In this document: piece by piece, positions 10,180 to 28,757 of the stretch
Numbering within the stretch: the stretch's first letter is position 1
Layout of the letters: each line of letters opens with the position of its first letter
DNA from: a virus
Lineage: Duplodnaviria > Heunggongvirae > Uroviricota > Caudoviricetes
Length of the DNA stretch: 31,296 nucleotides
Strand: one strand, 5' to 3'
Virus record (IMG/VR): IMGVR_UViG_2681813268_000004
Program-made: the position numbers and the translations under genes
Notes under the pieces: generated by a model
Told to the model about the DNA's origin: nothing
Seen by the model: only the letters and a program-made list of their open reading frames with translations
Databases searched by the model: none

Positions 10180-11208
10180 ATGGGATTGTTTACGACCCGC
10201 CAGTTACTCGGTTATACCGAACAAAAAGTGAAATTCCGTGCGCTGTTTCTGGAGCTGTTTTTCCGCCGTACGGTGAATTTCCACACCGAAGAGGTGATGC
10301 TGGACAAAATTACCGGAAAAACGCCGGTGGCGGCCTATGTCTCCCCGATCGTTGAAGGAAAAGTGCTTCGCCATCGCGGTGGTGAAACCCGCGTGTTACG
10401 TCCGGGCTACGTCAAGCCGAAACACGAATTTAATTACCAGCAGGCGGTTGAGCGCCTTCCTGGTGAAGATCCGGCTCAGCTGAACGACCCGGCCTACCGT
10501 CGTCTGCGTATCATTACCGATAACCTCAAACAGGAAGAGCACGCCATTGTCCAGGTGGAAGAAATGCAGGCGGTGAATGCCGTGCTGTATGGCAAATACA
10601 CCATGGAAGGGGATCAGTTTGATACTGTCGAGGTGGATTTCGGGCGCTCTGAAGGAAATAACATTGAGCAGGCTGACGGTAAAAAATGGTCTGAGCAGGA
10701 CCGTGATACGTTTGATCCGACGCATGATATTGACCTCTACTGCGATCAGGCCAGCGGCCTTGTGAATATCGCCATTATGGACGGTACGGTCTGGCGTCTG
10801 CTGAATGGCTTTAAGCTGTTCCGCGAAAAACTGGATACCCGTCGCGGCTCAAATTCACAACTCGAAACGGCAGTGAAAGATCTGGGCGCAGTGGTGTCCT
10901 TCAAGGGGTATTACGGCGATCTGGCCATTGTGGTGGCGAAAACGTCTTATGTGGCAGAGGACGGTACCGAAAAACGTTATCTGCCGGAGGGCATGCTGGT
11001 GCTGGGGAATACGGCGGCAGAGGGGATTCGTTGCTATGGTGCCATTAAGGATGCACAGGCGTTGTCTGAAGGAGTGGTGGCTTCTTCCCGTTACCCGAAA
11101 CACTGGCTGACCGTGGGCGATCCGTCCTGTGAATTCACCATGACGCAGTCCGCTCCGCTGATGGTGCTGCCGGATCCGGATGAGTTTGTGGTGGTACAGG
11201 TGAAATAA
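10180..11208 (+). CDS. E: Major capsid protein
   Basis: 342 aa; colinear recalled similarity to lambda gpE (341 aa), e.g. ..YVSPIV.G.V....GG......PGYVKPKHE.. and the C-terminal ..TMTQSAPLMVLPDPDEFVVVQV. Confidence 0.9.
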   Translation: MGLFTTRQLLGYTEQKVKFRALFLELFFRRTVNFHTEEVMLDKITGKTPVAAYVSPIVEGKVLRHRGGETRVLRPGYVKPKHEFNYQQAVERLPGEDPAQLNDPAYRRLRIITDNLKQEEHAIVQVEEMQAVNAVLYGKYTMEGDQFDTVEVDFGRSEGNNIEQADGKKWSEQDRDTFDPTHDIDLYCDQASGLVNIAIMDGTVWRLLNGFKLFREKLDTRRGSNSQLETAVKDLGAVVSFKGYYGDLAIVVAKTSYVAEDGTEKRYLPEGMLVLGNTAAEGIRCYGAIKDAQALSEGVVASSRYPKHWLTVGDPSCEFTMTQSAPLMVLPDPDEFVVVQVK

Positions 11209-11216
11209 TCCGTGAG

Positions 11217-11245
11217 CGGGGGCGAAATGCCCCCGTGTCTTTTTT
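11217..11245 (+). terminator. Hairpin plus T-run immediately after E (possible attenuator or terminator)
   Basis: cgggggc gaaat gcccccg followed by tgtctttttt; AGGAGG and the FI ATG follow. Confidence 0.45.
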
Positions 11246-11259
11246 CACAGGAGGCTGAG

Positions 11260-11643
11260 ATGGCAACAAAAGAAGAAAATCTGAATCGTCTTCGTCAACT
11301 GGCTGGCCTGCTGGGGCGCGAGGCGGATATGTCGGGGAGTGCTGCGGATATTGCTCAACGTGTGTCTGAGTGGGAAGAGGAGCTTGCTGTTTCCCCGGAG
11401 GGCATTATGCACTCTGATGAGAGCGGGGCTGATCAAAATCACACAGACGATGGTGAGCAGTTGAACAACACGGATGCTCCGGATGATGTTAAAGCCGTCC
11501 GGGTACGGAAGTGCCTGCAAGTAATGGGGTATTGCCCGGAGACAGGTCGTCCCGTTGAGCTGGCGTTACGGGGTATGCGTGTTCTGGTGCCATCATCACT
11601 GGCAACGGCCATGATACAGCACGGAACGGCTGAATATGCGTGA
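11260..11643 (+). CDS. FI: DNA packaging / head assembly protein FI
   Basis: ATG 11260 preceded by aggagg; 127 aa; position between E and FII; acidic central region. Identity based mainly on synteny. Confidence 0.7.
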   Translation: MATKEENLNRLRQLAGLLGREADMSGSAADIAQRVSEWEEELAVSPEGIMHSDESGADQNHTDDGEQLNNTDAPDDVKAVRVRKCLQVMGYCPETGRPVELALRGMRVLVPSSLATAMIQHGTAEYA

Positions 11644-11989
11644 TTTTCAGAATGCCTTTGATGCTGCCCTCGCCGGGGTAGACAGTACGATCGTTGAAGT
11701 GATGGGGCTCTGTGCGCAGTTCACCTCGGGGGCACAGTGTGGCAGCGAAGTTCAGGGGGTTTTTGACGATCCGGAGTCGCTGGGGTTTGCCGGTGGCGGG
11801 GTCCGTATTGAAGGAAGCAGCCCGTCATTATTTGTGCGGACGGATACGGTTCGTGCCGTGCGGCGTGGTGACACGCTGACCATTAATGGTGAGACATTCT
11901 GGGTGGATCGTGTTTCTCCGGATGACGGGGGCAGCTGTTATCTCTGGCTCAACCGTGGGCAACCACCCGCAGTTAACCGGCGACGATAA
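11636..11989 (+). CDS. FII: Head-tail connector protein FII
   Basis: 117 aa; ..GVFDDPE......G.GVR.EGSSPSLFVRTD.VR..RRGDTLTI....FWVDRVSPDDGGSC.LWL.RG.PPAVNRRR matches lambda FII by recall. Confidence 0.85.
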   Translation: MRDFQNAFDAALAGVDSTIVEVMGLCAQFTSGAQCGSEVQGVFDDPESLGFAGGGVRIEGSSPSLFVRTDTVRAVRRGDTLTINGETFWVDRVSPDDGGSCYLWLNRGQPPAVNRRR

Positions 11990-12003
11990 ACGCAGGGTGA
12001 ATT

Positions 12004-12579
12004 ATGGCGATAAAAGGGCTTGATCAGGCGATTGACAATCTGAGCCGGGTTCGTAAAAACGCCATTCCGGCTGCTTCTGCAATGACCATTAACCGCGTGG
12101 CCACAACGGCGATTAATCAGTCTTCGTCACAGGTTGCCCGGGAAACCAGGGTGAGACGGAAACTGGTAAAGGAACGGTCCAGACTGAAACGGGCGACGGT
12201 CAGAAATCCGAATGCCAGAATTATCGTTAACCGCGGTGATCTCCCTGTGATTAAGCTGGGGATCAGAATGCTGGGGCGTCGTCCGAACAGCATACTCAAA
12301 GCCGGTCAGCATCGTTATCAGCGGGCATTTATCCAGCGATTAAATAATGGGCGCTGGCATGTTATGCAACGTCTTCCCCAGGCCAGATATGAGGAGGGCA
12401 ATGACGACAAGGGAAGGAAAAAGCGTAATCGCCTTCCCATTCAGGTGGTGAAAATCCCGATGGCGGCCCCACTGAAACAGGCATTTGATGAGAATGTTGA
12501 CCGTATCCGGCGTGAACGCCTGCCTAAAGAACTGGCATACGCGCTGAAACAACAACTGAGGATTGCGATAAAACGATGA
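12004..12579 (+). CDS. Z: Tail completion protein Z
   Basis: 191 aa; MAIKGL.QA..NLSR......P.A.AM.INRVA...I.QS.SQVARET.VRRKLVKER.RLKRATV.NP.ARI.VNRGDLPVIKLG.. matches lambda gpZ by recall. Confidence 0.85.
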   Translation: MAIKGLDQAIDNLSRVRKNAIPAASAMTINRVATTAINQSSSQVARETRVRRKLVKERSRLKRATVRNPNARIIVNRGDLPVIKLGIRMLGRRPNSILKAGQHRYQRAFIQRLNNGRWHVMQRLPQARYEEGNDDKGRKKRNRLPIQVVKIPMAAPLKQAFDENVDRIRRERLPKELAYALKQQLRIAIKR

Positions 12580-12971
12580 AACACACTGACATTCGTGCCG
12601 CAGTGCTGGATGCACTCGAGCAGCATGAACACGGGGCGACGCTGTTTGATGGTCGCCCCGTTGTTTTTGACGAAGAGGATTTTCCTGCGATCGCGGTTTA
12701 TCTGACGGATGCAGAGTATACCGGTGAAGAGCTGGATGCAGATACCTGGCGGGCCACGCTGCATATTGAGGTGTTTTTACCGGCACAGGTACCGGATTCA
12801 GAGCTTGATCAGTGGATGGAAAGCCGGATTTACCCGGCGATGACCGCGATCCCGGCACTGGCAGGACTGATTACCACGATGGTTACGCAGGGCTATGAGT
12901 ATCGTCGTGATGACGATATGGCGTTATGGAGTTCTGCAGATCTGACTTATTCCATTACATACGAGATGTGA
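12576..12971 (+). CDS. U: Tail terminator protein U
   Basis: 131 aa; ATGA overlap with Z; [73 protein letters not shown] matches lambda gpU by recall. Confidence 0.9.
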
Positions 12972-12978
12972 GGACGAT

Positions 12979-13731
12979 ATGGCAACACCAAATCCCCTTG
13001 AGCCGGTAAAAGGTGCCGGCACCACTCTGTGGGTTTACAACGGCAAGGGTGATGCTTATGCAAACCCGTTGTCAGACGATGACTGGCAGCGACTGGCTAA
13101 GGTGAAGGATCTGACGCCGGGCGAGATGACGGCAGAATCCTACGATGATAACTACCTGGATGATGAAGACGCGGACTGGACCGCGACCGGGCAGGGGCAG
13201 AAATCTGCAGGTGATACCAGTTTTACGCTGGCCTGGAAACCGGGAGAGGAAGGCCAGAAAGGGCTTATAGGCTGGTTTGAAAGCGGCGATGTCCGGGCCT
13301 ATAAAATCCGTTTTCCGAATGGCACGGTGGATGTGTTTCGTGGCTGGGTCAGCAGTATCGGTAAGGCCGTGACGGCGAAAGAAGTGATCACCCGCACGGT
13401 GAAAGTCACTAACGTGGGTAAACCTTCTGTAGCGGAAGAACGCAGCAAAATTACGCCGGTCAGTGCGATTAAGGTGACGCCGACATCCGGTACGGTGGCA
13501 AAAGGGAAAACAACCACCCTGACGGTTTCTTTTGAGCCGGAAAGTGCAACCGACAAGACGTTCAGAGCGGTTTCCGCCGATCCGTCGAAAGCCACCATTA
13601 GTGTGAAAGATATGACAATTACGGTAAACGGCGTGGCGACAGGTAAGGTGCAGATCCCTGTGGTGAGCGGAAATGGTCAGTTCGCCGCAGTGGCTGAAGT
13701 CACCGTTACTGAAGCGGGCGCTGCAGGGTAA
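12979..13731 (+). CDS. V: Major tail tube protein V, with C-terminal Ig-like domain
   Basis: 250 aa; ..[69 protein letters not shown].. matches lambda gpV by recall. Confidence 0.9.
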
Positions 13732-13744: not shown

Positions 13745-14176
13745 ATGTTTCTGAAAACAGAACAATTTGAATATAACGGTGTGTCTGTCACGCTTTCCGA
13801 ATTGTCTGCGCTGCAGCGTATCGAGCATCTTGCCCTCCTGAAACGGCGTGCAGAACAGGCAGAATCCAGCGGCAACCTGCAGGTAAGCGTGGAAGATCTC
13901 GTCAGAACCGGCGCGTTTCTGGTGGCGATGTCCCTGTGGCATAACCATCCACAGAAAACGCAGTCACCGTCAATGAATGAGGCCGTGATGAAGATAGAGC
14001 AGGAAGTGCTCACCACCTGGCCTGCCGATGCCATTGCCCGGGCGGAAGACGTGGTGTTGTGCCTGTCCGGGATGATCGAAGCTGTTCGTCCGGATACTGA
14101 TATTACTGAAGTGGCGAAAAATAACACGCTGACTGATGATGATTTTTCTGCGGGAAAGTCTTCGACGGCGAGCTGA
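13745..14176 (+). CDS. G: Tail assembly chaperone G
   Basis: 143 aa; MFLKTE.FE.NGV.VTLSELSALQRIEHLAL.KR.AEQAES.. matches lambda gpG by recall; slippery site near the 3' end. Confidence 0.85.
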   Translation: MFLKTEQFEYNGVSVTLSELSALQRIEHLALLKRRAEQAESSGNLQVSVEDLVRTGAFLVAMSLWHNHPQKTQSPSMNEAVMKIEQEVLTTWPADAIARAEDVVLCLSGMIEAVRPDTDITEVAKNNTLTDDDFSAGKSSTAS

Positions 14177-14616
14177 ACTTTGCCCTCAGACTGGCGCGTG
14201 AGATGGGGAGACCCGACTGGCGCGCCATGCTTGCCGGGATGACATCCACCGAATATGCCGACTGGCACCGTTTTTACCGCACGCATTATTTTCAGGATAC
14301 CCAGCTGGATATGCATTTTTCCGGGCTGACGTACGCTGTACTCAGCCTGTTTTTTTGCGATCCGGATATGCATCCCTCTGATTTCAGTCTGCTTGTCCCC
14401 CGGCATGAGGAAGAGCAGGTGGAGAGGCCGGATGAGGACAAAATGCTGATGCAGAAAGCGGCAGGACTTGCCGGAGGCGTCCGGTTCGGTGGGGACGGAG
14501 GGCGCGATATTTTATCGTCTGCGGATGTGGCGGATGTCATGGTGGATGAAGCCGCATTAATGATGGCTTCAGCGGGGATTCCGGGAGGTGTGAGATATGT
14601 CCCAGCCGGTTGGTGA
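13745..14616 (+). CDS. T: G-T fusion tail assembly protein made by -1 frameshift at 14152-14158
   Basis: Frame arithmetic: G frame is coordinate mod 3 = 2, T frame is mod 3 = 1; T ends at 14616, overlapping the H start at 14597. Confidence 0.7.
14152..14158 (+). promoter_or_regulatory. Programmed -1 ribosomal frameshift slippery heptamer G GGA AAG (G to G-T)
   Basis: gggaaag sits in the G zero frame as G_GGA_AAG; the downstream T ORF (14203..14616 as listed) is in the -1 frame relative to G. Confidence 0.75.
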
Positions 14617-17600
14617 TCTTGTTATTGACCTGAGTCTGGATGCTGTCCGTTTCGATGAGCAGATGAGCCGGGTAAGGCGTCATTTTTCAGGTCTGGATAC
14701 CGACGCCAGAAAAACCGCCAGTGCTGTTGAACAGGGCCTGAGCCGCCAGGCGCTGGCTGCACAAAAAGCCGGGATTTCCGTCGGGCAGTATAAAGCGGCC
14801 ATGCGAACCCTGCCCGCACAGTTTACGGATATCGCCACGCAGCTTGCCGGTGGTCAGAATCCCTGGCTGATCCTGCTGCAACAGGGCGGTCAGGTGAAGG
14901 ACTCCTTCGGCGGGATGATCCCCATGTTCAGGGGGCTTGCCGGTGCGATCACCCTGCCGATGGTCGGGGTCACCTCGCTGGCGGTGGCGACAGGTGCGCT
15001 GGTGTACGCCTGGTACCAGGGAGATTCCACGCTTTCAGCGTTTAATAAAACGCTGGTCCTTTCCGGCAATCAGGCGGGACTGACGGCAGATCGTATGCTG
15101 GTCCTGTCCAGAGCCGGGCAGGCGGCAGGGCTGACGTTTAACCAGACCAGCGAGTCACTCAGCGCACTGGTTAAGGCGGGGGTAAGCGGTGAGGCTCAGA
15201 TTGCGTCCATCAGCCAGAGTGTGGCGCGTTTCTCCTATGCATCCGGCGTGGAGGTGGACAAGGTCGCTGAAGCCTTCGGGAAGCTGACCACAGACCCGAC
15301 GTCGGGGCTGACGGCGATGGCACGCCAGTTCCATAACGTGACGGCGGAGCAGATTGCGTATGTTGCTCAGTTGCAGCGTTCCGGCGATGAAGCCGGGGCA
15401 TTGCAGGCGGCGAACGAGGCCGCAACGAAAGGGTTTGATGACCAGACCCGCCGCCTGAAAGAGAACATGGGCACGCTGGAGACCTGGGCAGACAGGACTG
15501 CACGTGCATTCAAATCCATGTGGGATGCGGTGCTGGATATTGGTCGTCCTGATACCGCGCAGGAGATGCTGATTAAGGCAGAGGCTGCGTTTAAGAAAGC
15601 AGACGACATCTGGAATCTGCGCAAGGATGATTATTTTGTTAACGATGAAGCGCGGGCGCGTTACTGGGATGATCGTGAAAAGGCCCGTCTTGCGCTTGAA
15701 GCCGCCCGAAAGAAGGCTGAGCAGCAGACTCAACAGGACAAAAATGCGCAGCAGCAGAGCGATACCGAAGCGTCACGGCTGAAATATACCGAAGAGGCGC
15801 AGAAGGCTTACGAACGGCTGCAGACGCCGCTGGAGAAATATACCGCCCGTCAGGAAGAACTGAACAAGGCACTGAAAGACGGGAAAATCCTGCAGGCGGA
15901 TTACAACACGCTGATGGCGGCGGCGAAAAAGGATTATGAAGCGACGCTGAAAAAGCCGAAACAGTCCGGCGTGAAGGTGTCTGCGGGCGATCGTCAGGAA
16001 GACAGTGCTCATGCNTGCATCCGGCGTGGAGGTGGACAAGGTCGCTGAAGCCTTCGGGAAGCTGACCACAGACCCGACGTCGGGGCTGACGGCGATGGCA
16101 CGCCAGTTCCATAACGTGACGGCGGAGCAGATTGCGTATGTTGCTCAGTTGCAGCGTTCCGGCGATGAAGCCGGGGCATTGCAGGCGGCGAACGAGGCCG
16201 CAACGAAAGGGTTTGATGACCAGACCCGCCGCCTGAAAGAGAACATGGGCACGCTGGAGACCTGGGCAGACAGGACTGCACGTGCATTCAAATCCATGTG
16301 GGATGCGGTGCTGGATATTGGTCGTCCTGATACCGCGCAGGAGATGCTGATTAAGGCAGAGGCTGCGTTTAAGAAAGCAGACGACATCTGGAATCTGCGC
16401 AAGGATGATTATTTCGTTAACGATGAAGCACGGGCGCGTTACTGGGATGATCGTGAAAAAAAACGCCTGGAGCGGGATGCAGCCCAAAAGAGGGTAGATC
16501 AACAGCGTCAACAGGACAAAAATGCGCAGCAGCAGAGCGATACCGAAGCGTCACGGCTGAAATATACCGAAGAGGCGCAGAAGGCTTACGAACGGCTGCA
16601 GACGCCGCTGGAGAAATATACCGCCCGTCAGGAAGAACTGAACAAGGCACTGAAAGACGGAAAAATCCTGCAGGCAGATTACAACACGCTGATGGCGGCG
16701 GCGAAAAAGGATTATGAAGCGACGCTGAAAAAGCCGAAACAGTCCGGCGTGAAGGTGTCTGCGGGCGATCGTCAGGAAGACAGTGCTCATGCTGCCCTGC
16801 TGACGCTTCAGGCAGAACTCCGGACGCTGGAGAAGCATGCCGGAGCGAATGAGAAAATCAGCCAGCAGCGCCGGGATTTGTGGAAGGCAGAAAGTCAGTT
16901 CGCGGTACTGGAGGAGGCGGCACAACGTCGCCAGCTGTCCGCACAGGAGAAATCCCTGCTGGCGCATAAAGACGAGACGCTGGAGTACAAACGCCAGCTG
17001 GCTGCACTTGGTGACAAGGTTACGTATCAGGAGCACCTGAATGCGCTGGCGCAGCAGGCGGATAAATTCGCACAGCAGCAACGGGCAAAACGGGCAGCCA
17101 TTGATGCGAAAAACCGGGGGCTGACTGACCGGCAGGCAGCGCGGGAAGCCACGGAACAGCGCCTGAAGGAACAGTATGGCGATAATCCTCTGGCGCTGAA
17201 TAACGTCATGTCAGAGCAGAAAAAGACCTGGGCGGCTGAAGACCAGCTTCGCGGGAGCTGGATGGCAGGCCTGAAGTCCGGCTGGAGTGAGTGGGAAGAG
17301 AGCGCCACGGACAGTATGTCACAGGTTAAAAGTGCAGCCACGCAGACCTTTGATGGTATTGCACAGAATATGGCGGCGATGCTGACCGGCAGTGANGCCC
17401 TGCTGACGCTTCAGGCAGAACTCCGGACGCTGGAGAAGCATGCCGGAGCGAATGAGAAAATCAGCCAGCAGCGCCGGGATTTGTGGAAGGCAGAAAGTCA
17501 GTTCGCGGTACTGGAGGAGGCGGCACAACGTCGCCAGCTGTCCGCACAGGAGAAATCCCTGCTGGCGCATAAAGATGAGACGCTGGAGTACAAACGCCAG

Positions 17601-18539
17601 CTGGCTGCACTTGGCGATAAGGTCACGTATCAGGAGCGCCTGAACGCGCTGGCGCAGCAGGCGGATAAATTCGCACAGCAGCAACGGGCAAAACGGGCCG
17701 CTATTGATGCGAAAAGCCGGGGGCTGACTGACCGGCAGGCAGAACGGGAAGCCACGGAACAGCGCCTGAAGGAACAGTATGGCGATAATCCTCTGGCGCT
17801 GAATAACGTCATGTCAGAGCAGAAAAAGACCTGGGCGGCTGAAGACCTGCTTCGCGGGAGCTGGATGGCAGGCCTCAGGTCCGGCTGGAGCGAGTGGAAA
17901 GAGAGTGCCACGGACAGTATGTCGCAGGTAAAAAGTGCAGCCACGCAGACCTTTGATGGTATTGCGCAGAATATGGCGGCGATGCTGACCGGCAGTGAGC
18001 AGAACTGGCGCAGCTTCACCCGTTCCGTGCTGTCCATGATGACAGAAATTCTGCTTAAGCAGGCAATGGTGGGGATTGTCGGGAGTATTGGCAGCGCCAT
18101 TGGCGGGGCTGTTGGTGGCGGCGCATCAGCGTCAGGCGGTACAGCCATTCAGGCCGCTGCGGCGAAATTCCATTTTGCAACCGGAGGATTTACGGGAACC
18201 GGCGGCAAATATGAGCCAGCGGGGATTGTTCACCGTGGTGAATTTGTCTTCACGAAGGAGGCAACCAGCCGGATTGGCGTGGGAAATCTCTACCGGCTGA
18301 TGCGCGGCTATGCCACCGGCGGTTATGTCGGTGGCACCGGAAGTCCGGCGCAAATGCGGCGTTCAGAGGGTATCAGGTTTGAGCAGAACAACAACGTGGT
18401 GATTCAGAACGACGGTACGAATGGTCTGCCAGGTCCACAGATGATGAAGGCGGTGTATGACATGGCCCGCAAGGGTGCCCGTGATGAAATCCAGGCACAG
18501 ATGCGCGATGGTGGTCTGTTCTCCGGAGGTGGACGATGA
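14597..18539 (+). CDS. H: Tail tape measure protein; the span is inflated by two N-delimited redundant blocks, and the non-redundant length is 2562 nt (853 codons)
   Basis: Position after G-T; conserved C-terminal end overlapping M; Gln/Ala/Lys-rich coiled-coil-like middle. N at 16015 and 17396, each followed by a re-start at an earlier point of the gene. Confidence 0.8.
16016..16792 (+). repeat. Redundant variant copy of H block 15238..16014 (follows the N at 16015)
   Basis: Sequence after the N matches 15238.. at an offset of 778 nt, with a divergent patch (protein DDREKARLALEAARKKAEQQTQQ versus DDREKKRLERDAAQKRVDQQRQQ). Confidence 0.85.
17397..17998 (+). repeat. Redundant variant copy of H block 16794..17395 (follows the N at 17396)
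   Basis: Sequence after the N matches 16794.. at an offset of 603 nt, with scattered SNPs. Confidence 0.85.
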
Positions 18540-18865
18540 AAACCTTCCGCTGGAAAGTGAAACCCGGGATGGATGTGACATCGGCTCCTTCCGTCAGGGA
18601 GGTGCGCTTTGGTGATGGCTATTCCCAGCGTGCGCCTGCCGGGCTGAACGCTGACCTGAAAACGTACAGCGTGACGCTGTCTGTCTCCCGTGAGGAGGCC
18701 ACGGCGCTGGAGTCGTTTCTGGAAGAGCACGGGGGCTGGAAAGCCTTTCTGTGGACGCCGCCTTATGAGTGGCGGCAGATAAAGGTGACCTGCGCAAAAT
18801 GGTCGTCGCGGGTCAGTATGTTGCGTGTTGAGTTCAGCGCAGAGTTTAAACAGGTGGTGAACTGA
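18536..18865 (+). CDS. M: Minor tail protein M
   Basis: 109 aa; MKTFRWKVKPGMDV...PSVR.VRFGDGYSQRAPAGLNA.LKTYSVTLSV.REEAT.LESFLEEHGGWK.FLWTPPYEWRQIKVTCAKWSSRVSML matches lambda gpM by recall. Confidence 0.9.
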   Translation: MKTFRWKVKPGMDVTSAPSVREVRFGDGYSQRAPAGLNADLKTYSVTLSVSREEATALESFLEEHGGWKAFLWTPPYEWRQIKVTCAKWSSRVSMLRVEFSAEFKQVVN

Positions 18866-19563
18866 TGCAGGATATCCGGCAGGAAACACTGAATGAATGC
18901 ACCCGTGCGGAGCAGTCGGCCAGCGTGGTGCTCTGGGAAATCGATCTGACAGAGGTCGGTGGAGAACGTTATTTTTTCTGTAATGAGCAGAACGAAAAAG
19001 GTGAGCCGGTCACCTGGCAGGGGAGGCAGTATCAGGCGTATCCCATTCAGGGGAGCGGTTTTGAACTGAATGGCAAAGGCACCAGTACGCGGCCCACGCT
19101 GGCAGTCTCTAACCTGTACGGCATGGTCACCGGTATGGTGGAAGATATGCAGAGTCTGGTCGGCGGAACGGTGGTCCGGCGTAAGGTTTACGCCCGTTTT
19201 CTGGATGCGGTGAACTTCGTCAACGGAAACAGAGACGCCGATCCGGAGCAGGAGGTGATCAGCCGCTGGCGCATCGAGCAGTGCAGCGAACTGAGCGCGG
19301 TGAGTGCCTCCTTTGTACTGTCCACGCCGACGGAAACGGATGGCGCTGTTTTTCCGGGGCGTATCATGCTGGCCAACACCTGCACCTGGACCTATCGCGG
19401 CGATGAGTGCGGTTATCACGGTCCGGCGGTCGCGGATGAATATGACCAGCCAACGTCCGATATCACGAAGGATAAATGCAGCAAATGCCTGAGCGGTTGT
19501 AAGTTCCGCAATAACGTCGGCAACTTTGGCGGCTTCCTTTCCATTAACAAACTTTCGCAGTAA
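18865..19563 (+). CDS. L: Minor tail protein L (block 1 allele)
   Basis: 232 aa; TGATG overlap with M; cysteine-rich C-terminus (..CTWTYRGDECGY..KCSKCLSGCKFRNN..). Confidence 0.9.
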   Translation: MQDIRQETLNECTRAEQSASVVLWEIDLTEVGGERYFFCNEQNEKGEPVTWQGRQYQAYPIQGSGFELNGKGTSTRPTLAVSNLYGMVTGMVEDMQSLVGGTVVRRKVYARFLDAVNFVNGNRDADPEQEVISRWRIEQCSELSAVSASFVLSTPTETDGAVFPGRIMLANTCTWTYRGDECGYHGPAVADEYDQPTSDITKDKCSKCLSGCKFRNNVGNFGGFLSINKLSQ

Positions 19564-19574: not shown

Positions 19575-19723
19575 TTCTGGAAGAGCACGGGGGCTGGAAA
19601 GCCTTTCTGTGGACGCCGCCTTATGAGTGGCGGCAGATAAAGGTGACCTGCGCAAAATGGTCGTCGCGGGTCAGTATGCTGCGTGTTGAGTTCAGCGCAG
19701 AGTTTGAACAGGTGGTGAACTGA
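19575..19723 (+). CDS. M: M, 3' fragment (5' end cut by the N junction)
   Basis: Matches 18716..18865 of the complete M with one change (K to E near the C-terminus). Confidence 0.6.
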
Positions 19724-20421
19724 TGCAGGATATCCGGCAGGAAACACTGAATGAATGCACCCGTGCGGAGCAGTCGGCCAGCGTGGTGCTCTGGGAAATC
19801 GATCTGACAGAGGTCGGTGGAGAACGTTATTTTTTCTGTAATGAGCAGAACGAAAAAGGTGAGCCGGTCACCTGGCAGGGGCGACAGTATCAGCCGTATC
19901 CCATTCAGGGGAGTGGTTTTGAACTGAATGGCAAAGGCACCAGTACGCGCCCCACGCTGATGGTTTCTAACCTGTACGGTATGGTCACCGGGATGGCGGA
20001 AGATCTACAGAGTCTGGTCGGCGGAACGGTGGTCCGGCGTAAGGTTTACGCCCGTTTTCTGGATGCGGTGAACTTCGTCAACGGAAACAGTGACGCCGAT
20101 CCGGAGCAGGAGGTGATCAGCCGCTGGCGCATTGAGCAGTGCAGCGAACTGAGCGCGGTGAGTGCCTCTTTTGTACTGTCCACGCCGACGGAAACAGATG
20201 GCGCTGTTTTTCCGGGACGTATCATGCTGGCCAACACCTGCACCTGGACCTATCGCGGCGATGAGTGCGGTTATCACGGTCCGGCGGTCGCGGATGAATA
20301 TGACCAGCCAACGTCCGACATCACGAAGGATAAATGCAGCAAATGCCTGAGTGGTTGTAAGTTCCGCAATAACGTCGGCAACTTTGGCGGCTTCCTTTCC
20401 ATTAACAAACTTTCGCAGTAA
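19723..20421 (+). CDS. L: Minor tail protein L (block 2 allele)
   Basis: 232 aa; differs from the block-1 L at a few residues (QAYP/QPYP, TLAVS/TLMVS, GNRD/GNSD). Confidence 0.85.
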   Translation: MQDIRQETLNECTRAEQSASVVLWEIDLTEVGGERYFFCNEQNEKGEPVTWQGRQYQPYPIQGSGFELNGKGTSTRPTLMVSNLYGMVTGMAEDLQSLVGGTVVRRKVYARFLDAVNFVNGNSDADPEQEVISRWRIEQCSELSAVSASFVLSTPTETDGAVFPGRIMLANTCTWTYRGDECGYHGPAVADEYDQPTSDITKDKCSKCLSGCKFRNNVGNFGGFLSINKLSQ

Positions 20422-20426
20422 ATCCC

Positions 20427-21170
20427 ATGACAGAGACAGAATCAGCGATTCTGGCGCACGCCCGGCGATGTGCGCCAGCGGAGTCGTGTGGCTTCGTGGT
20501 AAGAACGCCGGAGGGAGACAGGTATCTTCCCAGCGAGAATATCTCCGGTGAGCCGGAGGAACGGTTCCGGATGGCTCCGGAGGACTGGCTGCGGGCACAA
20601 ATGCAGGGTGAGATTGTGGCGCTGGTCCACAGTCATCCCGGTGGTCTGCCCTGGCTGAGTGAGGCTGACCGGCGGCTGCAGGTGCAGAGTGATTTGCCGT
20701 GGTGGCTGGTCTGCCGGGGGGCGATTCACAAGTTCCGCTGTGTGCCGCATCTCACCGGGCGGCGCTTTGAGCACGGGGTGACGGACTGTTACACGCTGTT
20801 CCGGGATGCTTATCATCTGGCAGGGATTGAGATGCCGGATTTTCATCGCGGGGATGACTGGTGGCGTAACGGTCAGAATCTCTATCTTGACAATATGGAG
20901 GTGACGGGTTTTTACCGTGTCGCACTGACAGAGGCACAGCCGGGCGATGTGCTGCTGTGCTGTTTTGGTTCATCGGTGCCGAATCATGCCGCCATTTACT
21001 GTGGTGACGGCGAGCTGCTGCACCATATTCCTGAACAACTGAGCAAACGAGAGAGGTACACCGACAAATGGCAGCGACGCACACACTCCCTCTGGCGTCA
21101 CCGGGCATGGCGCGCATCTGCCTTTACGGGGATTTACAACGATTTGGTCGCCGCATCGACCTTCGTGTGA
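20427..21170 (+). CDS. K: Tail tip assembly protein K; JAMM/MPN metalloprotease-like N-domain plus NlpC/P60-like C-domain
   Basis: 247 aa; JAMM motif E..HSHPGGLPWLSEAD (H-x-H-x7-S-x2-D) and a Cys/His pair (DCYTLF ... NHAAIY) read directly. Confidence 0.85.
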   Translation: MTETESAILAHARRCAPAESCGFVVRTPEGDRYLPSENISGEPEERFRMAPEDWLRAQMQGEIVALVHSHPGGLPWLSEADRRLQVQSDLPWWLVCRGAIHKFRCVPHLTGRRFEHGVTDCYTLFRDAYHLAGIEMPDFHRGDDWWRNGQNLYLDNMEVTGFYRVALTEAQPGDVLLCCFGSSVPNHAAIYCGDGELLHHIPEQLSKRERYTDKWQRRTHSLWRHRAWRASAFTGIYNDLVAASTFV

Positions 21171-21709
21171 AAACGGGGGCTGAAGCCATCCGGGCACTGG
21201 CCACACAGCTCCCGGCGTTTCGTCAGAAACTGAGTGACGGCTGGTATCAGGTGCGCATTGCCGGGCGTGATGCAGGTGAAACCGAATTGTCTGCCCGTCT
21301 TAATGAGCCGCTGGCAAATGGTGCAGTGATCCACATAGTACCGCGTCTGGTGGGAGCTAAAAGTGGCGGTGTGTTTCAGGCGGTGCTGGGGGCGGCTGTT
21401 ATGGCGGTTGCTATATGGATGCCGGGGGTAGGAATTATGGCGAGTAATCTGCTGTTTTCTCTCGGTGCCAGTATGACGCTTGGCGGTGTTGCACAGATGC
21501 TGGCACCGAAAGCCAGAACTCCCCGTACACAGACAACGGATAACGGTAAGCAGAACACGTATTTCTCGTCACTGGATAACATGGTTGCCCAGGGCAATGT
21601 TCTGCCCGTTCTGTACGGTGAAATGCGCGTGGGGTCACGTGTGGTTTCTCAGGAGATCAGCACGGCAGACGAAGGGGATGGTGGTCAGGTTGTGGTGATT
21701 GGTCGCTGA
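21068..21709 (+). CDS. I: Tail tip assembly protein I (allele with ..DAGETELSARLNEPLANG.. centre)
   Basis: 213 aa; starts inside the 3' end of K in another frame; conserved N-terminus MAATHTLPLASPGMARICLYGDLQRFGRRIDL and C-terminus ..GEMRVGSRVVSQEISTADEGDGGQVVVIGR. Confidence 0.85.
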   Translation: MAATHTLPLASPGMARICLYGDLQRFGRRIDLRVKTGAEAIRALATQLPAFRQKLSDGWYQVRIAGRDAGETELSARLNEPLANGAVIHIVPRLVGAKSGGVFQAVLGAAVMAVAIWMPGVGIMASNLLFSLGASMTLGGVAQMLAPKARTPRTQTTDNGKQNTYFSSLDNMVAQGNVLPVLYGEMRVGSRVVSQEISTADEGDGGQVVVIGR

Positions 21710-21769
21710 TGCAAAATGTTTTATGTGAAACCGCCTGCGGGCGGTTTTGTCGTTTATGGAGCGTGAGGA

Positions 21770-22371
21770 ATGGGTAAAGGCAGCAGTAAGGGGCATACCC
21801 CGCGCGAAGCGAAGGACAACCTGAAATCCACGCAGTTGCTGAGTGTGATTGATGCCATCAGCGAAGGGCCGGTTGACGGTCCGGTGGATGGATTAAAAAG
21901 CGTGCTGCTGAACGGTACGCCGGTCCTGGACAGCGAGGGGAAGACAAACTTTTCCGGTGTTACGGTGGTGTTCCGTGCAGGTGAGCAGGAGCAGACACCG
22001 CCGGAGGGTTTTGAATCCTCCGGCTCCGAGACGGTGCTGGGTACGGAAGTGAAATATGACACGCCGATCACCCGGACCATCACGTCGGCAAACATCGACC
22101 GTCTGCGCCTGACCTTCGGTGTGCAGGCACTGGTGGAAACCACCTCAAAGGGTGACCGGAATCCGTCGGAAGTCCGCCTGCTGGTTCAGATACAGCGTAA
22201 CGGTGGCTGGGTGACGGAAAAAGACATCACCATTAAGGGCAAAACCACTTCGCAGTATCTGGCCTCGGTGGTGGTGGGTAACCTGCCGCCGCGCCCGTTT
22301 AATATCCGGATGCGCAGGATGACACCGGACAGCACCACAGACCAGCTGCAGAACAAAACGCTCTGGTCGTC
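21770..22371 (+). CDS. J: Tail tip / host-specificity protein J, 5' fragment (cut by N gap)
   Basis: MGKGSSKGHTPREAKDNLKSTQLLSVIDAISEGP.. matches the lambda gpJ N-terminus by recall; preceded by a ccgcc-tgcg-ggcgg hairpin. Confidence 0.8.
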
Positions 22372-22382
22372 NNNNNNNNNNN
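22372..22382. other. 11-N gap or junction
   Basis: n run read directly; sequence resumes at the same internal M position as after the first gap. Confidence 0.95.
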
Positions 22383-22531
22383 TTCTGGAAGAGCACGGGG
22401 GCTGGAAAGCCTTTCTGTGGACGCCGCCTTATGAGTGGCGGCAGATAAAGGTGACCTGCGCAAAATGGTCGTCGCGGGTCAGTATGCTGCGTGTTGAGTT
22501 CAGCGCAGAGTTTGAACAGGTGGTGAACTGA
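22383..22531 (+). CDS. M: M, 3' fragment (second redundant copy)
   Basis: Same sequence as 19575..19723. Confidence 0.6.
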
Positions 22532-23229
22532 TGCAGGATATCCGGCAGGAAACACTGAATGAATGCACCCGTGCGGAGCAGTCGGCCAGCGTGGTGCTCT
22601 GGGAAATCGATCTGACAGAGGTCGGTGGAGAACGTTATTTTTTCTGTAATGAGCAGAACGAAAAAGGTGAGCCGGTCACCTGGCAGGGGCGACAGTATCA
22701 GCCGTATCCCATTCAGGGGAGTGGTTTTGAACTGAATGGCAAAGGCACCAGTACGCGCCCCACGCTGATGGTTTCTAACCTGTACGGTATGGTCACCGGG
22801 ATGGCGGAAGATCTACAGAGTCTGGTCGGCGGAACGGTGGTCCGGCGTAAGGTTTACGCCCGTTTTCTGGATGCGGTGAACTTCGTCAACGGAAACAGTG
22901 ACGCCGATCCGGAGCAGGAGGTGATCAGCCGCTGGCGCATTGAGCAGTGCAGCGAACTGAGCGCGGTGAGTGCCTCTTTTGTACTGTCCACGCCGACGGA
23001 AACAGATGGCGCTGTTTTTCCGGGACGTATCATGCTGGCCAACACCTGCACCTGGACCTATCGCGGCGATGAGTGCGGTTATCACGGTCCGGCGGTCGCG
23101 GATGAATATGACCAGCCAACGTCCGACATCACGAAGGATAAATGCAGCAAATGCCTGAGTGGCTGTAAGTTTCGCAATAACGTCGGCAACTTTGGCGGCT
23201 TCCTTTCCATTAACAAACTTTCGCAGTAA
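22531..23229 (+). CDS. L: Minor tail protein L (block 3; protein identical to block 2)
   Basis: 232 aa; same translation as 19723..20421. Confidence 0.85.
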   Translation: MQDIRQETLNECTRAEQSASVVLWEIDLTEVGGERYFFCNEQNEKGEPVTWQGRQYQPYPIQGSGFELNGKGTSTRPTLMVSNLYGMVTGMAEDLQSLVGGTVVRRKVYARFLDAVNFVNGNSDADPEQEVISRWRIEQCSELSAVSASFVLSTPTETDGAVFPGRIMLANTCTWTYRGDECGYHGPAVADEYDQPTSDITKDKCSKCLSGCKFRNNVGNFGGFLSINKLSQ

Positions 23230-23234
23230 ATCCC

Positions 23235-23978
23235 ATGACAGAGACAGAATCAGCGATTCTGGCGCACGCCCGGCGATGTGCTCCAGCGGAGTCGTGCGGC
23301 TTCGTGGTAAGAACGCCGGAGGGGGAAAGATATTTCCCCTGCGTGAATATCTCCGGTGAGCCGGAGGCGTATTTCCGTATGTCGCCGGAAGACTGGCTGC
23401 AGGCAGAGATGCAGGGTGAGATTGTGGCACTGGTCCACAGCCACCCCGGTGGTCTGCCCTGGCTGAGTGAGGCCGACCGGCGGCTGCAGGTGCAGAGTGA
23501 TTTGCCGTGGTGGCTGGTCTGCCGGGGGGCGATTCACAAGTTCCGCTGTGTGCCACATCTTACCGGGCGGCGCTTTGAGCACGGGGTGACGGACTGTTAC
23601 ACGCTGTTCCGGGATGCTTACCATCTGGCGGGGATTGAGATGCCGGATTTTCATCGTGAGGATGACTGGTGGCGTCACGGTCAGAATCTCTATCTGGATA
23701 ATCTGGAGGCCACAGGGCTGTATCAGGTGCCGTTGTCAGCGGCGCAGCCGGGCGATGTGCTGCTGTGCTGTTTTGGTTCATCGGTGCCGAATCATGCCGC
23801 CATTTACTGTGGTGACGGCGAGCTGCTGCACCATATTCCTGAACAACTGAGCAAACGAGAGAGGTATACCGACAAATGGCAGCGACGCACACACTCCCTC
23901 TGGCGTCACCGGGCATGGCACGCATCTGCCTTTACGGGGATTTGCAACGATTTGGCCGCCGCATCGACCTTCGTGTGA
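23235..23978 (+). CDS. K: Tail tip assembly protein K (block 3 allele)
   Basis: 247 aa; same JAMM and Cys/His motifs; differs from block 2 in patches (EGERYFPCVNISGEPEAYFRMSPEDWLQAEMQ versus EGDRYLPSENISGEPEERFRMAPEDWLRAQMQ). Confidence 0.85.
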   Translation: MTETESAILAHARRCAPAESCGFVVRTPEGERYFPCVNISGEPEAYFRMSPEDWLQAEMQGEIVALVHSHPGGLPWLSEADRRLQVQSDLPWWLVCRGAIHKFRCVPHLTGRRFEHGVTDCYTLFRDAYHLAGIEMPDFHREDDWWRHGQNLYLDNLEATGLYQVPLSAAQPGDVLLCCFGSSVPNHAAIYCGDGELLHHIPEQLSKRERYTDKWQRRTHSLWRHRAWHASAFTGICNDLAAASTFV

Positions 23979-24547
23979 AAACGGGTGCCGAAGCCATCCG
24001 GGCGATGGCCACACAGCTCCCTGCGTTTCGTCAGAAGCTGAGCGACGGCTGGTATCAGGTGCGTATTGCCGGGCAGGATGTTAGCACGTCCGGATTAACG
24101 GCACAGTTACATGAGGCTCTGCCTGACGGCGCTGTGATTCATATTGTTCCCAGAGTCGCCGGGGCCAAGTCAGGTGGTGTATTCCAGATTGTCCTGGGAG
24201 CAGCCGCCATTGCCGGATCATTCTTTACCGCCGGAGCCACCCTTGCAGCATGGGGGGCTGCCATTGGTGCCGGTGGTATGACCGGCATTCTGTTTTCTCT
24301 CGGTGCCAGTATGGTGCTCGGCGGTGTGGCTCAGATGCTGGCACCGAAAGCCAGAACTCCCCGCACACAGACAACGGATAACGGTAAGCAGAACACCTAT
24401 TTCTCCTCACTGGATAACATGGTTGCCCAGGGCAATGTTATGCCTGTTCTGTATGGTGAAATGCGCGTGGGGTCACGTGTGGTATCTCAGGAGATCAGCA
24501 CGGCAGACGAAGGGGACGGTGGTCAGGTTGTGGTGATTGGTCGCTGA
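23876..24547 (+). CDS. I: Tail tip assembly protein I (allele with ..DVSTSGLTAQLHEALPDG.. centre)
   Basis: 223 aa; conserved ends, divergent glycine/alanine-rich hydrophobic middle. Confidence 0.85.
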   Translation: MAATHTLPLASPGMARICLYGDLQRFGRRIDLRVKTGAEAIRAMATQLPAFRQKLSDGWYQVRIAGQDVSTSGLTAQLHEALPDGAVIHIVPRVAGAKSGGVFQIVLGAAAIAGSFFTAGATLAAWGAAIGAGGMTGILFSLGASMVLGGVAQMLAPKARTPRTQTTDNGKQNTYFSSLDNMVAQGNVMPVLYGEMRVGSRVVSQEISTADEGDGGQVVVIGR

Positions 24548-24607
24548 TGCAAAATGTTTTATGTGAAATCGCCTCCGGGCGGTTTTATCGTTTATGGAGC
24601 ATGACGA

Positions 24608-24832
24608 ATGGGTAAAGGCAGCAGTAAGGGGCATACCCCGCGCGAAGCGAAGGACAACCTGAAGTCCACGCAGCTGCTGAGTGTGATCGATGCCATCAGC
24701 GAAGGGCCGGTTGAAGGTCCGGTGGATGGATTAAAAAGCGTGCTGCTGAACAGTACGCCGGTGCTGGACAGTGAGGGGAATACCAACATCTCCGGCGTCA
24801 CGGTGGTGTTCCGGGCAGGTGAGCAGGAGCAG
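24608..24832 (+). CDS. J: J, 5' fragment (cut by the N at 24833)
   Basis: Begins MGKGSSKGHTPREAK..; ends at the N junction, after which the sequence is mid-K. Confidence 0.7.
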
Positions 24833-24833
24833 N

Positions 24834-25367
24834 CCCGGTGGTCTGCCCTGGCTGAGTGAGGCTGACCGGCGGCTGCAGGTGCAGAGTGATTTGCCGTGGT
24901 GGCTGGTCTGCCGGGGGGCGATTCATAAGTTCCGCTGTGTGCCGCATCTCACCGGGCGGCGCTTTGAGCACGGGGTGACGGACTGTTACACGCTGTTCCG
25001 GGATGCTTATCATCTGGCGGGGATTGAGATGCCGAATTTTCATCGCGGGGATGACTGGTGGCGTCACGGTCAGAATCTCTATCTTGACAATATGGAGGCT
25101 ACTGGTTTTTACCGTGTCGCACTGACAGAGGCGCAGCCGGGCGATGTGCTGCTGTGCTGTTTTGGTTCATCGGTGCCGAATCATGCCGCCATTTACTGTG
25201 GTGACGGCGAGCTGCTGCACCATATTCCTGAACAACTGAGCAAACGAGAGAGGTATACCGACAAATGGCAGCGACGCACACACTCCCTCTGGCGTCACCG
25301 GGCATGGCACGCATCTGCCTTTACGGGGATTTGCAACGATTTGGCCGCCGCATCGACCTTCGTGTGA
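24834..25367 (+). CDS. K: K, 3' fragment (begins at ..PGGLPWLSEADRR.. after the N junction)
   Basis: In-frame continuation of the K C-terminal two-thirds; the listed ORF 24771..25367 is a J-K chimera across the N. Confidence 0.6.
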   Translation, partial: PGGLPWLSEADRRLQVQSDLPWWLVCRGAIHKFRCVPHLTGRRFEHGVTDCYTLFRDAYHLAGIEMPNFHRGDDWWRHGQNLYLDNMEATGFYRVALTEAQPGDVLLCCFGSSVPNHAAIYCGDGELLHHIPEQLSKRERYTDKWQRRTHSLWRHRAWHASAFTGICNDLAAASTFV

Positions 25368-25936
25368 AAACGGGTGCCGAAGCCATCCGGGCGATGGCCA
25401 CACAGCTCCCTGCGTTTCGTCAGAAGCTGAGCGACGGCTGGTATCAGGTGCGTATTGCCGGGCAGGATGTTAGCACGTCCGGATTAACGGCACAGTTACA
25501 TGAGGCTCTGCCTGACGGCGCTGTGATTCATATTGTTCCCAGAGTCGCCGGGGCCAAGTCAGGTGGTGTATTCCAGATTGTCCTGGGAGCAGCCGCCATT
25601 GCCGGATCATTCTTTACCGCCGGAGCCACCCTTGCAGCATGGGGGGCTGCCATTGGTGCCGGTGGTATGACCGGCATTCTGTTTTCTCTCGGTGCCAGTA
25701 TGGTGCTCGGCGGTGTGGCTCAGATGCTGGCACCGAAAGCCAGAACTCCCCGCACACAGACAACGGATAACGGTAAGCAGAACACCTATTTCTCCTCACT
25801 GGATAACATGGTTGCCCAGGGCAATGTTATGCCTGTTCTGTATGGTGAAATGCGCGTGGGGTCACGTGTGGTATCTCAGGAGATCAGCACGGCAGACGAA
25901 GGGGACGGTGGTCAGGTTGTGGTGATTGGTCGCTGA
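25265..25936 (+). CDS. I: Tail tip assembly protein I (same allele as 23876..24547)
   Basis: 223 aa; translation identical to the block-3 I. Confidence 0.85.
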   Translation: MAATHTLPLASPGMARICLYGDLQRFGRRIDLRVKTGAEAIRAMATQLPAFRQKLSDGWYQVRIAGQDVSTSGLTAQLHEALPDGAVIHIVPRVAGAKSGGVFQIVLGAAAIAGSFFTAGATLAAWGAAIGAGGMTGILFSLGASMVLGGVAQMLAPKARTPRTQTTDNGKQNTYFSSLDNMVAQGNVMPVLYGEMRVGSRVVSQEISTADEGDGGQVVVIGR

Positions 25937-25996
25937 TGCAAAATGTTTTATGTGAAATCGCCTCCGGGCGGTTTTATCGTTTATGGAGCATGACGA

Positions 25997-26655
25997 ATGG
26001 GTAAAGGCAGCAGTAAGGGGCATACCCCGCGCGAAGCGAAGGACAACCTGAAGTCCACGCAGCTGCTGAGTGTGATCGATGCCATCAGCGAAGGGCCGGT
26101 TGAAGGTCCGGTGGATGGATTAAAAAGCGTGCTGCTGAACAGTACGCCGGTGCTGGACAGTGAGGGGAATACCAACATCTCCGGCGTCACGGTGGTGTTC
26201 CGGGCAGGTGAGCAGGAGCAGTCACCGCCGGAGGGATTTGAATCCTCCGGCTCCGAGACGGTGCTGGGTACGGAAGTGAAATATGACACGCCGATCACCC
26301 GGACCATCACGTCGGCAAACATTGACCGACTGCGTTTTACCTTCGGTGTACAGGCACTGGTGGAAACCACCTCAAAGGGAGACAGGAATCCGTCTGAAGT
26401 TCGCCTGCTGGTTCAGATACAGCGTAACGGTGGCTGGGTGACGGAAAAAGACATCACCATTAAGGGCAAAACCACCTCGCAGTATCTGGCCTCGGTGGTG
26501 GTGGATAACCTGCCGCCGCGCCCGTTTAATATCCGGATGCGCAGAATGACGCCGGACAGCACCACAGACCAGCTGCAGAACAAAACGCTCTGGTCGTCAT
26601 ACACCGAAATCATCGATGTGAAACAGTGCTACCCGAACACGGCACTGGTCGGCGT
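25997..26655 (+). CDS. J: J, 5' fragment (cut by the N at 26656)
   Basis: gpJ N-terminal 219 codons. Confidence 0.7.
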
Positions 26656-26656
26656 N

Positions 26657-27433: not shown

Positions 27434-27506
27434 TATTATTTTACTCATGTTCTAACTGATTTAATATTTATATCGAACACTGATAATTATTCTATTGGTT
27501 AGCTAT

Positions 27507-28756: not shown

Positions 28757-28757
28757 N

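What the first reader, a model, noticed from the sequence alone, without database searches (positions are those of the whole stretch)
14597..18539. Tape measure gene is inflated by two N-delimited redundant blocks; the non-redundant sequence is exactly 853 codons
At the N at 16015 the sequence jumps back to the equivalent of 15238 and repeats about 777 nt as a diverged copy. At the N at 17396 it jumps back to 16794 and repeats about 602 nt. Taking 14597-16014, 16793-17395 and 17999-18539 gives 1418 + 603 + 541 = 2562 nt, or 853 codons plus stop, the length I recall for lambda gpH. Because tape measure length sets tail length, an apparent H of 1313 codons would predict an abnormally long tail; the arithmetic instead argues the extra blocks are concatenated alternative alleles, not insertions.
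Basis: partly seen in the sequence, partly recalled or inferred. Interest (0 to 1): 0.6.

Follow-up and report, generated by a model that had tools for sequence, protein, structure and literature searches.

The report
Tape measure gene inflated by scaffolding artefact
The oversized lambda-type tail tape measure gene is an assembly artefact: a 1.38-kb piece of the same gene from a second, related prophage was spliced between N placeholders into an ordinary 853-codon gene.

Summary
After the N at 16015 the sequence restarts at the equivalent of 15238 (777 nt, 23 mismatches). After the N at 17396 it restarts at the equivalent of 16794 (602 nt, 20 mismatches). Removing the redundancy leaves 2562 nt, an intact 853-codon ORF colinear with lambda gpH.

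Two refinements:
- The raw 3943-nt span is not a 1313-codon ORF. Its length is not divisible by 3 and the frame breaks at the first junction, giving ORFs of 483 and 844 aa.
- The two "blocks" are physically one foreign 1380-nt contig (16016-17395) plus one N. Window 14597-16014 + N + 17397-18539 matches the annotated 2562-nt tape measure gene of the finished genome E. coli APEC E12049, with 3 mismatches and N = T.

The inserted piece, together with 22383-24832 and 28758-31296, matches a different prophage contig at 99.75-100%. That contig carries its own 853-codon H.

All 8 N-runs in the window are jump-back junctions. Neither H junction exists in 5,426 complete E. coli genomes.

The window is a scaffold that interleaves contigs from at least four lambdoid tail modules. 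Biological interest is low; the value is as a data-quality flag.

The parts
13745..14176 (+). gpG-type tail assembly chaperone gene, with the GGGAAAG slippery heptamer at 14152-14158 in the G GGA AAG frame
   Evidence: Pfam Phage_TAC_2, E = 1.9e-51; heptamer position.
14203..14616 (+). gpT-type tail assembly protein reading frame
   Evidence: Pfam Phage_tail_T, E = 2.9e-14.
14597..16014 (+). Tape measure gene H, haplotype A, gene nt 1-1418. This is the end of scaffold segment 2 (1063-16014).
   Evidence: Colinear with the annotated tape measure gene of E. coli APEC E12049 (L127 18582..), with 3 mismatches over the whole gene. TMP_2 domain.
16015..16015 (.). Placeholder N. It stands for gene nt 1419, which is T in APEC E12049, in L031 and in the inserted copy at 16793.
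16016..17395 (+). Interloper contig: an internal fragment of a second H allele (haplotype B), equivalent to lambda 11183-12562. Its left 777 nt duplicate 15238-16014 and its right 602 nt duplicate 17397-17998.
   Evidence: 99.86% identical to L123 (IMGVR_UViG_2700989234_000002) inside an 853-aa H ORF. 99.7% identical to E. coli ACN002 inside a 2562-nt tape measure gene. 96.7% to lambda.
17396..17396 (.). Second placeholder N at the end of the interloper
17397..18539 (+). Tape measure gene H, haplotype A, gene nt 1420-2562 including the stop. This is the start of scaffold segment 4 (17397-19563).
   Evidence: Segment 4 is 100% identical (2167/2167) to APEC E12049 and to NZ_OZ547052.1. Tape_meas_lam_C domain.
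18536..18865 (+). gpM-type tail tip protein gene immediately downstream of H
   Evidence: Pfam Phage_min_tail, E = 5e-40.
18865..19563 (+). gpL-type minor tail protein gene. Segment 4 ends exactly at its stop codon, followed by an 11-N run and another jump back.
   Evidence: Pfam Phage_tail_L, E = 2.4e-100.
19575..31296 (+). Five further N-delimited overlapping segments (19575-22371, 22383-24832, 24834-26655, 26657-28756, 28758-31296) that re-cover M-L-K-I-J 5' from at least four haplotypes. Same artefact as in H.

Best explanation
The window is a scaffold or otherwise ordered concatenation of short-read contigs from several closely related lambdoid prophage tail modules, at least four haplotypes that are 94-99% identical. 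These came either from one polylysogenic E. coli or from a mixture of strains.

Contigs broke where the haplotypes share exact sequence. A scaffolding or ordering step then laid all of them along one common coordinate axis. Where neighbouring contigs overlapped but were too different to merge, it inserted placeholder Ns (1 or 11).

In the H region, haplotype A is complete and normal: 14597-16014, one base, then 17397-18539, giving 2562 nt or 853 codons. A 1380-nt fragment of haplotype B's H gene plus one N was dropped into the one-base break, adding 1381 nt of redundancy and breaking the frame.

Biologically there is an ordinary lambda gpH-type tape measure gene of 853 codons, which predicts an ordinary lambda-length tail.

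Shown: the anatomy, the haplotype assignment, and the absence of the junctions in finished genomes. Inferred: the software step that produced the interleaving, and whether the haplotypes share one genome.
For: - All 8 N-runs (1062, 16015, 17396, 19564-74, 22372-82, 24833, 26656, 28757) are followed by a jump back of 0.5-2.8 kb at 94-100% identity. On lambda coordinates the segments run ..11959 | 11183-12562 | 11961-14127 | 13281-16106 | 13281-15729 | 14342-16163 | 14638-16349 | 14381-16919.
- Haplotype A: segment 2 is 98.6%, segment 4 is 100% and segment 8 is 99.95% identical to one prophage of the finished genome APEC E12049. Its annotated 2562-nt tape measure gene equals 14597-16014 + N + 17397-18539 with 3 mismatches and N = T. 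The same is seen in L031, where the gene is called at 853 aa.
- Haplotype B: segments 3, 6 and 9 are 99.86%, 100% and 99.75% identical to one N-free contig, L123, whose H ORF is 853 aa.
- The frame breaks at the first junction.
- 61-nt probes spanning each junction find no match in 5,426 complete E. coli genomes. 122 of the 148 matching phage records cover at least 80% of the 3943-nt query, and every listed one maps it onto about 2552 nt in 3 pieces.
- Every internal segment end lies in a stretch shared exactly with another copy, 32 to 1349 nt long, except the start of segment 2, which is offset by one base. This is what is expected of contig ends at graph branch points.
- The same single-N jump-back occurs in two other IMG/VR contigs, L124 and L130.
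- Fragmentation of E. coli short-read assemblies by homogeneous lambdoid prophages is documented (PMC7175801). These tail genes occur at a median of 2-3 and up to 14 places per complete genome.
Against: - The source record, its assembly metadata and its reads were not found, so the software step is inferred.
- The segment order is not perfectly sorted by start, end or midpoint on any reference tried.
- Segments 6 and 9 share 1349 identical bases yet were not merged.
- Haplotype A breaks at exactly one base inside a 296-nt stretch that is identical in A and B. No standard assembler behaviour I can name accounts for this.
- No single genome in the collections was shown to hold haplotypes A and B together at 100%.
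Confidence: 0.95

Rival explanations
1. The duplications are real. The phage carries an H gene enlarged by two diverged internal tandem duplications, and the Ns are merely ambiguous base calls. This would give either an extra-long tail or, because of the frameshift, a disrupted H pseudogene.
For: Tape measure genes do tolerate internal deletions, with proportional tail-length changes (Katsura and Hendrix 1984, as cited in PMC1796659). The second redundancy is in frame at 603 nt.
Against: - The first junction shifts the frame, with a stop 11 codons later.
- Both junctions coincide exactly with Ns, as do six other jump-backs outside H.
- The two flanks rejoin to a known finished-genome allele with one base missing.
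- The inserted block belongs to another haplotype whose continuation appears further down the window.
- Neither junction is present in 5,426 complete genomes or in the listed phage records that cover the query.
Confidence: 0.01
2. The artefact is the same, but the alleles come from several E. coli strains or phages in a mixed sample (a metagenome, virome or contaminated culture) rather than from several prophages in one genome.
For: - No complete genome holds haplotype B at 99% or better over its full length together with haplotype A. For segment 3 the only complete genome above 97.5% is ACN002 at 99.7%, and for segment 6 the best is 98.1%.
- The IMG/VR genome identifiers that carry an A-specific 63-mer and a B-specific 51-mer do not overlap.
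- Related contigs also occur in contigs numbered like metagenomes (3300...).
Against: - E. coli genomes commonly carry 2-14 copies of these tail genes.
- L130, whose IMG/VR identifier (2695420808) is numbered like an isolate genome, combines A-like and B-like sequence in one N-joined scaffold.
Confidence: 0.25
3. The concatenation was produced by reference-guided contig ordering or a database build step (contigs sorted against a lambda-like reference and joined with Ns), rather than by a paired-end scaffolder.
For: - The segments are nearly sorted by reference start coordinate.
- Exact overlaps as long as 1349 nt were left unmerged.
- Segments 2 and 4 look like one contig split at an ambiguous base, with segment 3 sorted in between.
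Against: Segment 9 starts before segment 8 on both lambda and APEC coordinates, so the sort is not exact. There is no metadata to check.
Confidence: 0.35

Closest known systems
Bacteriophage lambda gpH tail tape measure protein (J02459 10542..13103, 853 aa)
   Same: After the interloper is removed the gene is 2562 nt (853 codons) and gap-free colinear with lambda H, 93.6-94.6% identical in protein depending on the stitch. It has the TMP_2 and Tape_meas_lam_C domains. It sits between G/T (with the GGGAAAG slippery site) and M-L.
   Different: About 5% nucleotide divergence from lambda in the 3' two thirds and more in the 5' third (the alignment spanning 12436-16018 is 83% overall). The upstream head genes are only 70-80% identical to lambda.
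Tape measure gene of the trp-adjacent lambdoid prophage of E. coli O78:H4 APEC E12049 (NZ_CP126952.1, WP_001403610.1)
   Same: Identical in length, with 3 nucleotide mismatches to window 14597-16014 + N + 17397-18539. The M and L genes are identical.
   Different: The finished genome has no N and no 1380-nt insertion. The rest of segment 2 is 98.6% identical, so this is a close relative and not the source.
Haplotype-interleaved or redundant scaffolds from short-read assembly of repeated lambdoid prophages
   Same: N-joined overlapping contigs, contig ends in exactly shared sequence, and redundancy spread over many genes. The fragmentation problem is documented for E. coli carrying many lambdoid prophages (PMC7175801), and two further examples were seen here (L124, L130).
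   Different: The exact software and gap convention (1 N versus 11 N) are unknown. The one-base break in haplotype A is unexplained.

Membership tests
Lambda gpH-type tail tape measure protein | Pfam TMP_2 N-terminal domain plus Tape_meas_lam_C domain | tested here: met
   In the de-duplicated 853-aa protein, TMP_2 has E = 6.1e-69 (residues 54-256) and Tape_meas_lam_C has E = 3.7e-21 (residues 627-701).
Lambda gpH-type tail tape measure protein | 853 codons, colinear with lambda H without gaps | tested here: met
   Two different stitches both give 2562 nt and 853 codons, with 94.6% and 93.6% protein identity to lambda H position by position. The raw record does not meet this: it is 3943 nt with a broken frame.
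Lambda gpH-type tail tape measure protein | Gene order V - G - T (with the G-T slippery heptamer) - H - M - L | tested here: met
   Pfam Phage_TTP_12, Phage_TAC_2, Phage_tail_T, Phage_min_tail and Phage_tail_L appear in that order. GGGAAAG lies at 14152-14158 in the G GGA AAG frame.
Lambda gpH-type tail tape measure protein | Protein length sets tail length, about 0.15 nm per residue | not testable with these tools
   Established for lambda and TM4 (Katsura and Hendrix 1984, cited in PMC1796659). Needs electron microscopy of virions.
Assembly or scaffolding artefact (redundant haplotype contigs joined by Ns) | Every discontinuity coincides with an N placeholder | tested here: met
   8 of 8 N-runs are jump-back junctions. 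No jump-back occurs without an N.
Assembly or scaffolding artefact (redundant haplotype contigs joined by Ns) | Flanks of the inserted block rejoin into a sequence known from finished genomes, and the inserted block belongs to a different natural haplotype | tested here: met
   APEC E12049 for the flanks. L123 and ACN002 for the insert, each with a normal 853-codon gene.
Assembly or scaffolding artefact (redundant haplotype contigs joined by Ns) | Junction sequences absent from independently finished genomes | tested here: met
   61-nt junction probes find no match at E <= 1e-6 in 5,426 complete E. coli genomes.
Assembly or scaffolding artefact (redundant haplotype contigs joined by Ns) | No reads span the junctions; the AGP or assembly record shows separate contigs | not testable with these tools
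   The source record was not located.
Genuine internal tandem duplication of a tape measure gene | Reading frame preserved across the duplication junctions | tested here: not met
   The first junction adds 778 nt (+1 frame), with a stop at 16046-16048.

The most novel reading that the evidence does not exclude
The source DNA really contains a rearranged H locus, in which illegitimate recombination between two co-resident lambdoid prophages inserted a 1.38-kb segment of one allele into the other. The Ns would then be only low-quality base calls at the novel joints, and the result would be a frameshifted tape measure pseudogene.
Probability: 0.01. Interest if true: 0.25.

Novelty: not a real feature. 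Interest (0 to 1): 0.05.

Why it matters
The biology is that of an ordinary lambda-type tape measure gene, so nothing new follows about tail-length control.

The practical point is data quality. Gene callers run on this record will emit two spurious tape measure proteins: a 483-aa fragment with a frameshifted tail, and an 844-aa protein with an in-frame 201-residue pseudo-duplication and ambiguous residues. They will also emit triplicated L and four- to five-fold K/I/J fragments.

Such products can contaminate protein clusters and inflate gene counts. They could also be mistaken for natural tape measure length variation or for tail-gene amplification. At least two other IMG/VR contigs show the same single-N jump-back. 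A simple screen would be worthwhile before such collections are mined: flag any N-run whose right flank aligns upstream of its left flank.

Tried and rejected
**Locating the source record.**
- An exact 40-mer and a 48-mer from the window found 28 and 83 IMG/VR contigs, but none identical to the window.
- A pattern spanning the junction found nothing. It is unclear whether a literal N in the database can match.
- An exact look-up of the truncated 483-aa ORF found nothing.
- A haplotype-B 51-mer found nothing in the GTDB representative genomes.

**Co-residence of haplotypes A and B in one genome.** I compared the IMG/VR genome identifiers that carry A-specific and B-specific markers. The sets do not overlap, so this is inconclusive. 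L130 does combine A-like and B-like sequence.

**Junction probes.** The first 101-nt probes were uninformative. The tool joins the two half-matches into one 'place', and a true single-piece hit would have ranked level with those joined pairs among the few rows listed. I replaced them with 61-nt probes at E <= 1e-6, for which only a true junction could score.

**Segment order.** I tested whether it is a strict sort by reference start, end or midpoint. It is not.

**Synonymous versus non-synonymous differences between copies** (9:9 and 13:6 codons). This does not discriminate between the hypotheses.

**Real duplication.** Considered and rejected, as set out above.
Full report
**1. Checking the observation**

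The window contains eight N-runs: 1062, 16015, 17396, 19564-19574, 22372-22382, 24833, 26656 and 28757.

15238-16014 matches 16016-16792 and 16794-17395 matches 17397-17998, at 96.9% and 96.7% identity, E = 0. Counted base by base these are 777 nt with 23 mismatches and 602 nt with 20 mismatches. In the first repeat the mismatches are confined to 15637-15898, and the first 399 nt are identical.

14597-16014 + 16793-17395 + 17999-18539 is 2562 nt, and it translates as 853 codons plus a stop with no internal stop. It is 94.6% identical to lambda gpH position by position. Lambda H is annotated 10542..13103, 853 aa.

One point is wrong. The raw span 14597-18539 is 3943 nt, not a multiple of three. 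The first redundancy (N + 777 nt = 778 nt) shifts the frame, so the record holds two ORFs, 14597-16048 (483 aa) and 16005-18539 (844 aa), and not a 1313-codon gene.

**2. What is really there**

Against lambda, the window is a chain of overlapping segments, each starting upstream of where the previous one ended. The lambda coordinates are ..11959 | 11183-12562 | 11961-14127 | 13281-16106 | 13281-15729 | 14342-16163 | 14638-16349 | 14381-16919. A similar jump-back of 474 nt sits at the N at 1062, in the esterase/holin region. So the phenomenon is a property of the whole record and not of H. All 8 N-runs are jump-back junctions.

In the H region the two pieces flanking the "extra" sequence abut with exactly one base missing. 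14597-16014 (1418 nt) + N + 17397-18539 (1143 nt) is again 2562 nt.

This joined sequence matches a finished genome. In E. coli O78:H4 APEC E12049 (NZ_CP126952.1) a lambdoid prophage next to the trp operon has an annotated 2562-nt tape measure gene. It differs from the joined sequence at only 3 positions, and the N corresponds to T. Segment 17397-19563 is 100% identical (2167/2167) to that genome, and segment 26657-28756 is 99.95% identical to the same prophage. A draft genome with the identical large terminase (L031, GCA_014427265.1) shows the same colinearity, and its tape measure gene is called at 853 aa.

The intervening 1380 nt (16016-17395) is therefore one foreign contig.

That contig is 99.86% identical to IMGVR_UViG_2700989234_000002 (L123), an N-free contig. 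L123 also carries window segment 22383-24832 at 100% and 28758-31296 at 99.75%, and its own H ORF is 853 aa. The contig is also 99.7% identical to E. coli ACN002, again inside a 2562-nt tape measure gene.

The window therefore interleaves haplotype A (segments 2, 4, 8) with haplotype B (segments 3, 6, 9). Two further haplotypes (segments 5 and 7) differ from both and from each other by 3-5%.

**3. Tests of the rival "real duplication"**

- I ran 61-nt probes centred on each junction at an E-value limit at which a 30-nt half-match cannot score. Neither found a match in 5,426 complete E. coli genomes.
- 122 of the 148 matching phage records cover at least 80% of the 3943-nt query, and every listed one maps it onto about 2552 nt in three pieces.
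- The first junction destroys the frame.
- Every internal segment end lies in a stretch shared exactly with another copy, 32 to 1349 nt long, as expected for contig ends at assembly-graph branch points. The one exception is the start of segment 2, which is offset by one base.
- The last 1349 nt of segment 6 are identical to the first 1349 nt of segment 9.

A genuine duplication explains none of these.

**4. Mechanism (inferred)**

Tail genes of lambdoid prophages occur at a median of 2-3 and up to 14 places per complete E. coli genome. They are a documented cause of fragmented short-read assemblies (PMC7175801).

The most likely history has three steps:
1. Contigs from several near-identical tail modules broke at shared exact sequence.
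2. A scaffolder or reference-guided ordering step placed them on one coordinate axis.
3. Overlapping but non-identical neighbours were joined with placeholder Ns.

The same single-N jump-back occurs in two other IMG/VR contigs. L130 has an N at 3113, after which the sequence restarts about 1.6 kb upstream. L124 has an N at 8215, with tape measure ORFs of 853 and 857 aa on either side. This points to a recurrent pipeline artefact.

Not established:
- which software produced it;
- why 1 N at some joins and 11 N at others;
- why haplotype A breaks at one base inside a 296-nt stretch that is identical in A and B;
- whether the haplotypes share one genome or come from a mixture. The marker-carrying IMG/VR genomes for A and B do not overlap, but L130 mixes both.

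**5. Comparison with the known**

The underlying gene meets every sequence-level criterion of a lambda gpH-type tape measure protein:
- TMP_2 and Tape_meas_lam_C domains;
- 853 codons colinear with lambda H;
- gene order V-G-T-H-M-L, with the G GGA AAG slippery heptamer at 14152-14158.

The ruler relationship is about 17 nm per 114 residues (Katsura and Hendrix 1984, as cited in PMC1796659). With 853 residues this predicts an ordinary lambda-length tail.

**6. Verdict**

There is one interloper contig rather than two blocks, and there was never an intact 1313-codon ORF. The inflated gene is not a biological feature. Interest is low, apart from its use as a data-quality flag for collections built from draft scaffolds.

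Noticed in passing
window 18717-31296: The same artefact multiplies the downstream tail genes. L is present three times (18865-19563, 19723-20421, 22531-23229). K, I and the 5' end of J are present four to five times, from at least four haplotypes, separated by the N-runs at 19564-74, 22372-82, 24833, 26656 and 28757.
   Followed up: partly
window 23484-24832 and 28758-30106: The last 1349 nt of segment 6 are exactly identical to the first 1349 nt of segment 9, yet the two were not merged, and two other segments lie between them.
   Followed up: partly
window 588-1538: The N at 1062 is also a jump-back. 588-1061 is repeated at 1064-1538 (99.2%), duplicating the 3' end of the SASA-type esterase gene and the holin region. 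Segment 1 is a different haplotype from segment 2 (94.6% versus 98.4% identity to APEC E12049).
   Followed up: partly
L130 (IMGVR_UViG_2695420808_000007) N at 3113; L124 (IMGVR_UViG_2690316286_000003) N at 8215: Two other public viral contigs show the same single-N jump-back within lambdoid tail genes. L124 carries two tape measure ORFs (853 and 857 aa) on either side of the N. This suggests a recurrent assembly-pipeline artefact in that collection.
   Followed up: partly
window 16015 (gene nt 1419): Haplotype A is broken at exactly one base in the middle of a 296-nt stretch identical between haplotypes A and B. That base is T in APEC E12049, in L031 and in the inserted copy, but G in ACN002. 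It may have been an ambiguous SNP call that later served as a split point. Unexplained.
   Followed up: no
window 3835-3875: An exact 41-nt match to lambda positions 1-41 (the cos end) lies upstream of the terminase small subunit gene, although the head genes are only 70-80% identical to lambda.
   Followed up: no
window 2600-3098: A roughly 500-nt stretch between the lysis genes and cos has no match in the closest relatives examined (L031-L035, APEC E12049). A 48-mer from it occurs in 83 IMG/VR contigs. It contains small ORFs rich in hydrophobic residues.
   Followed up: no
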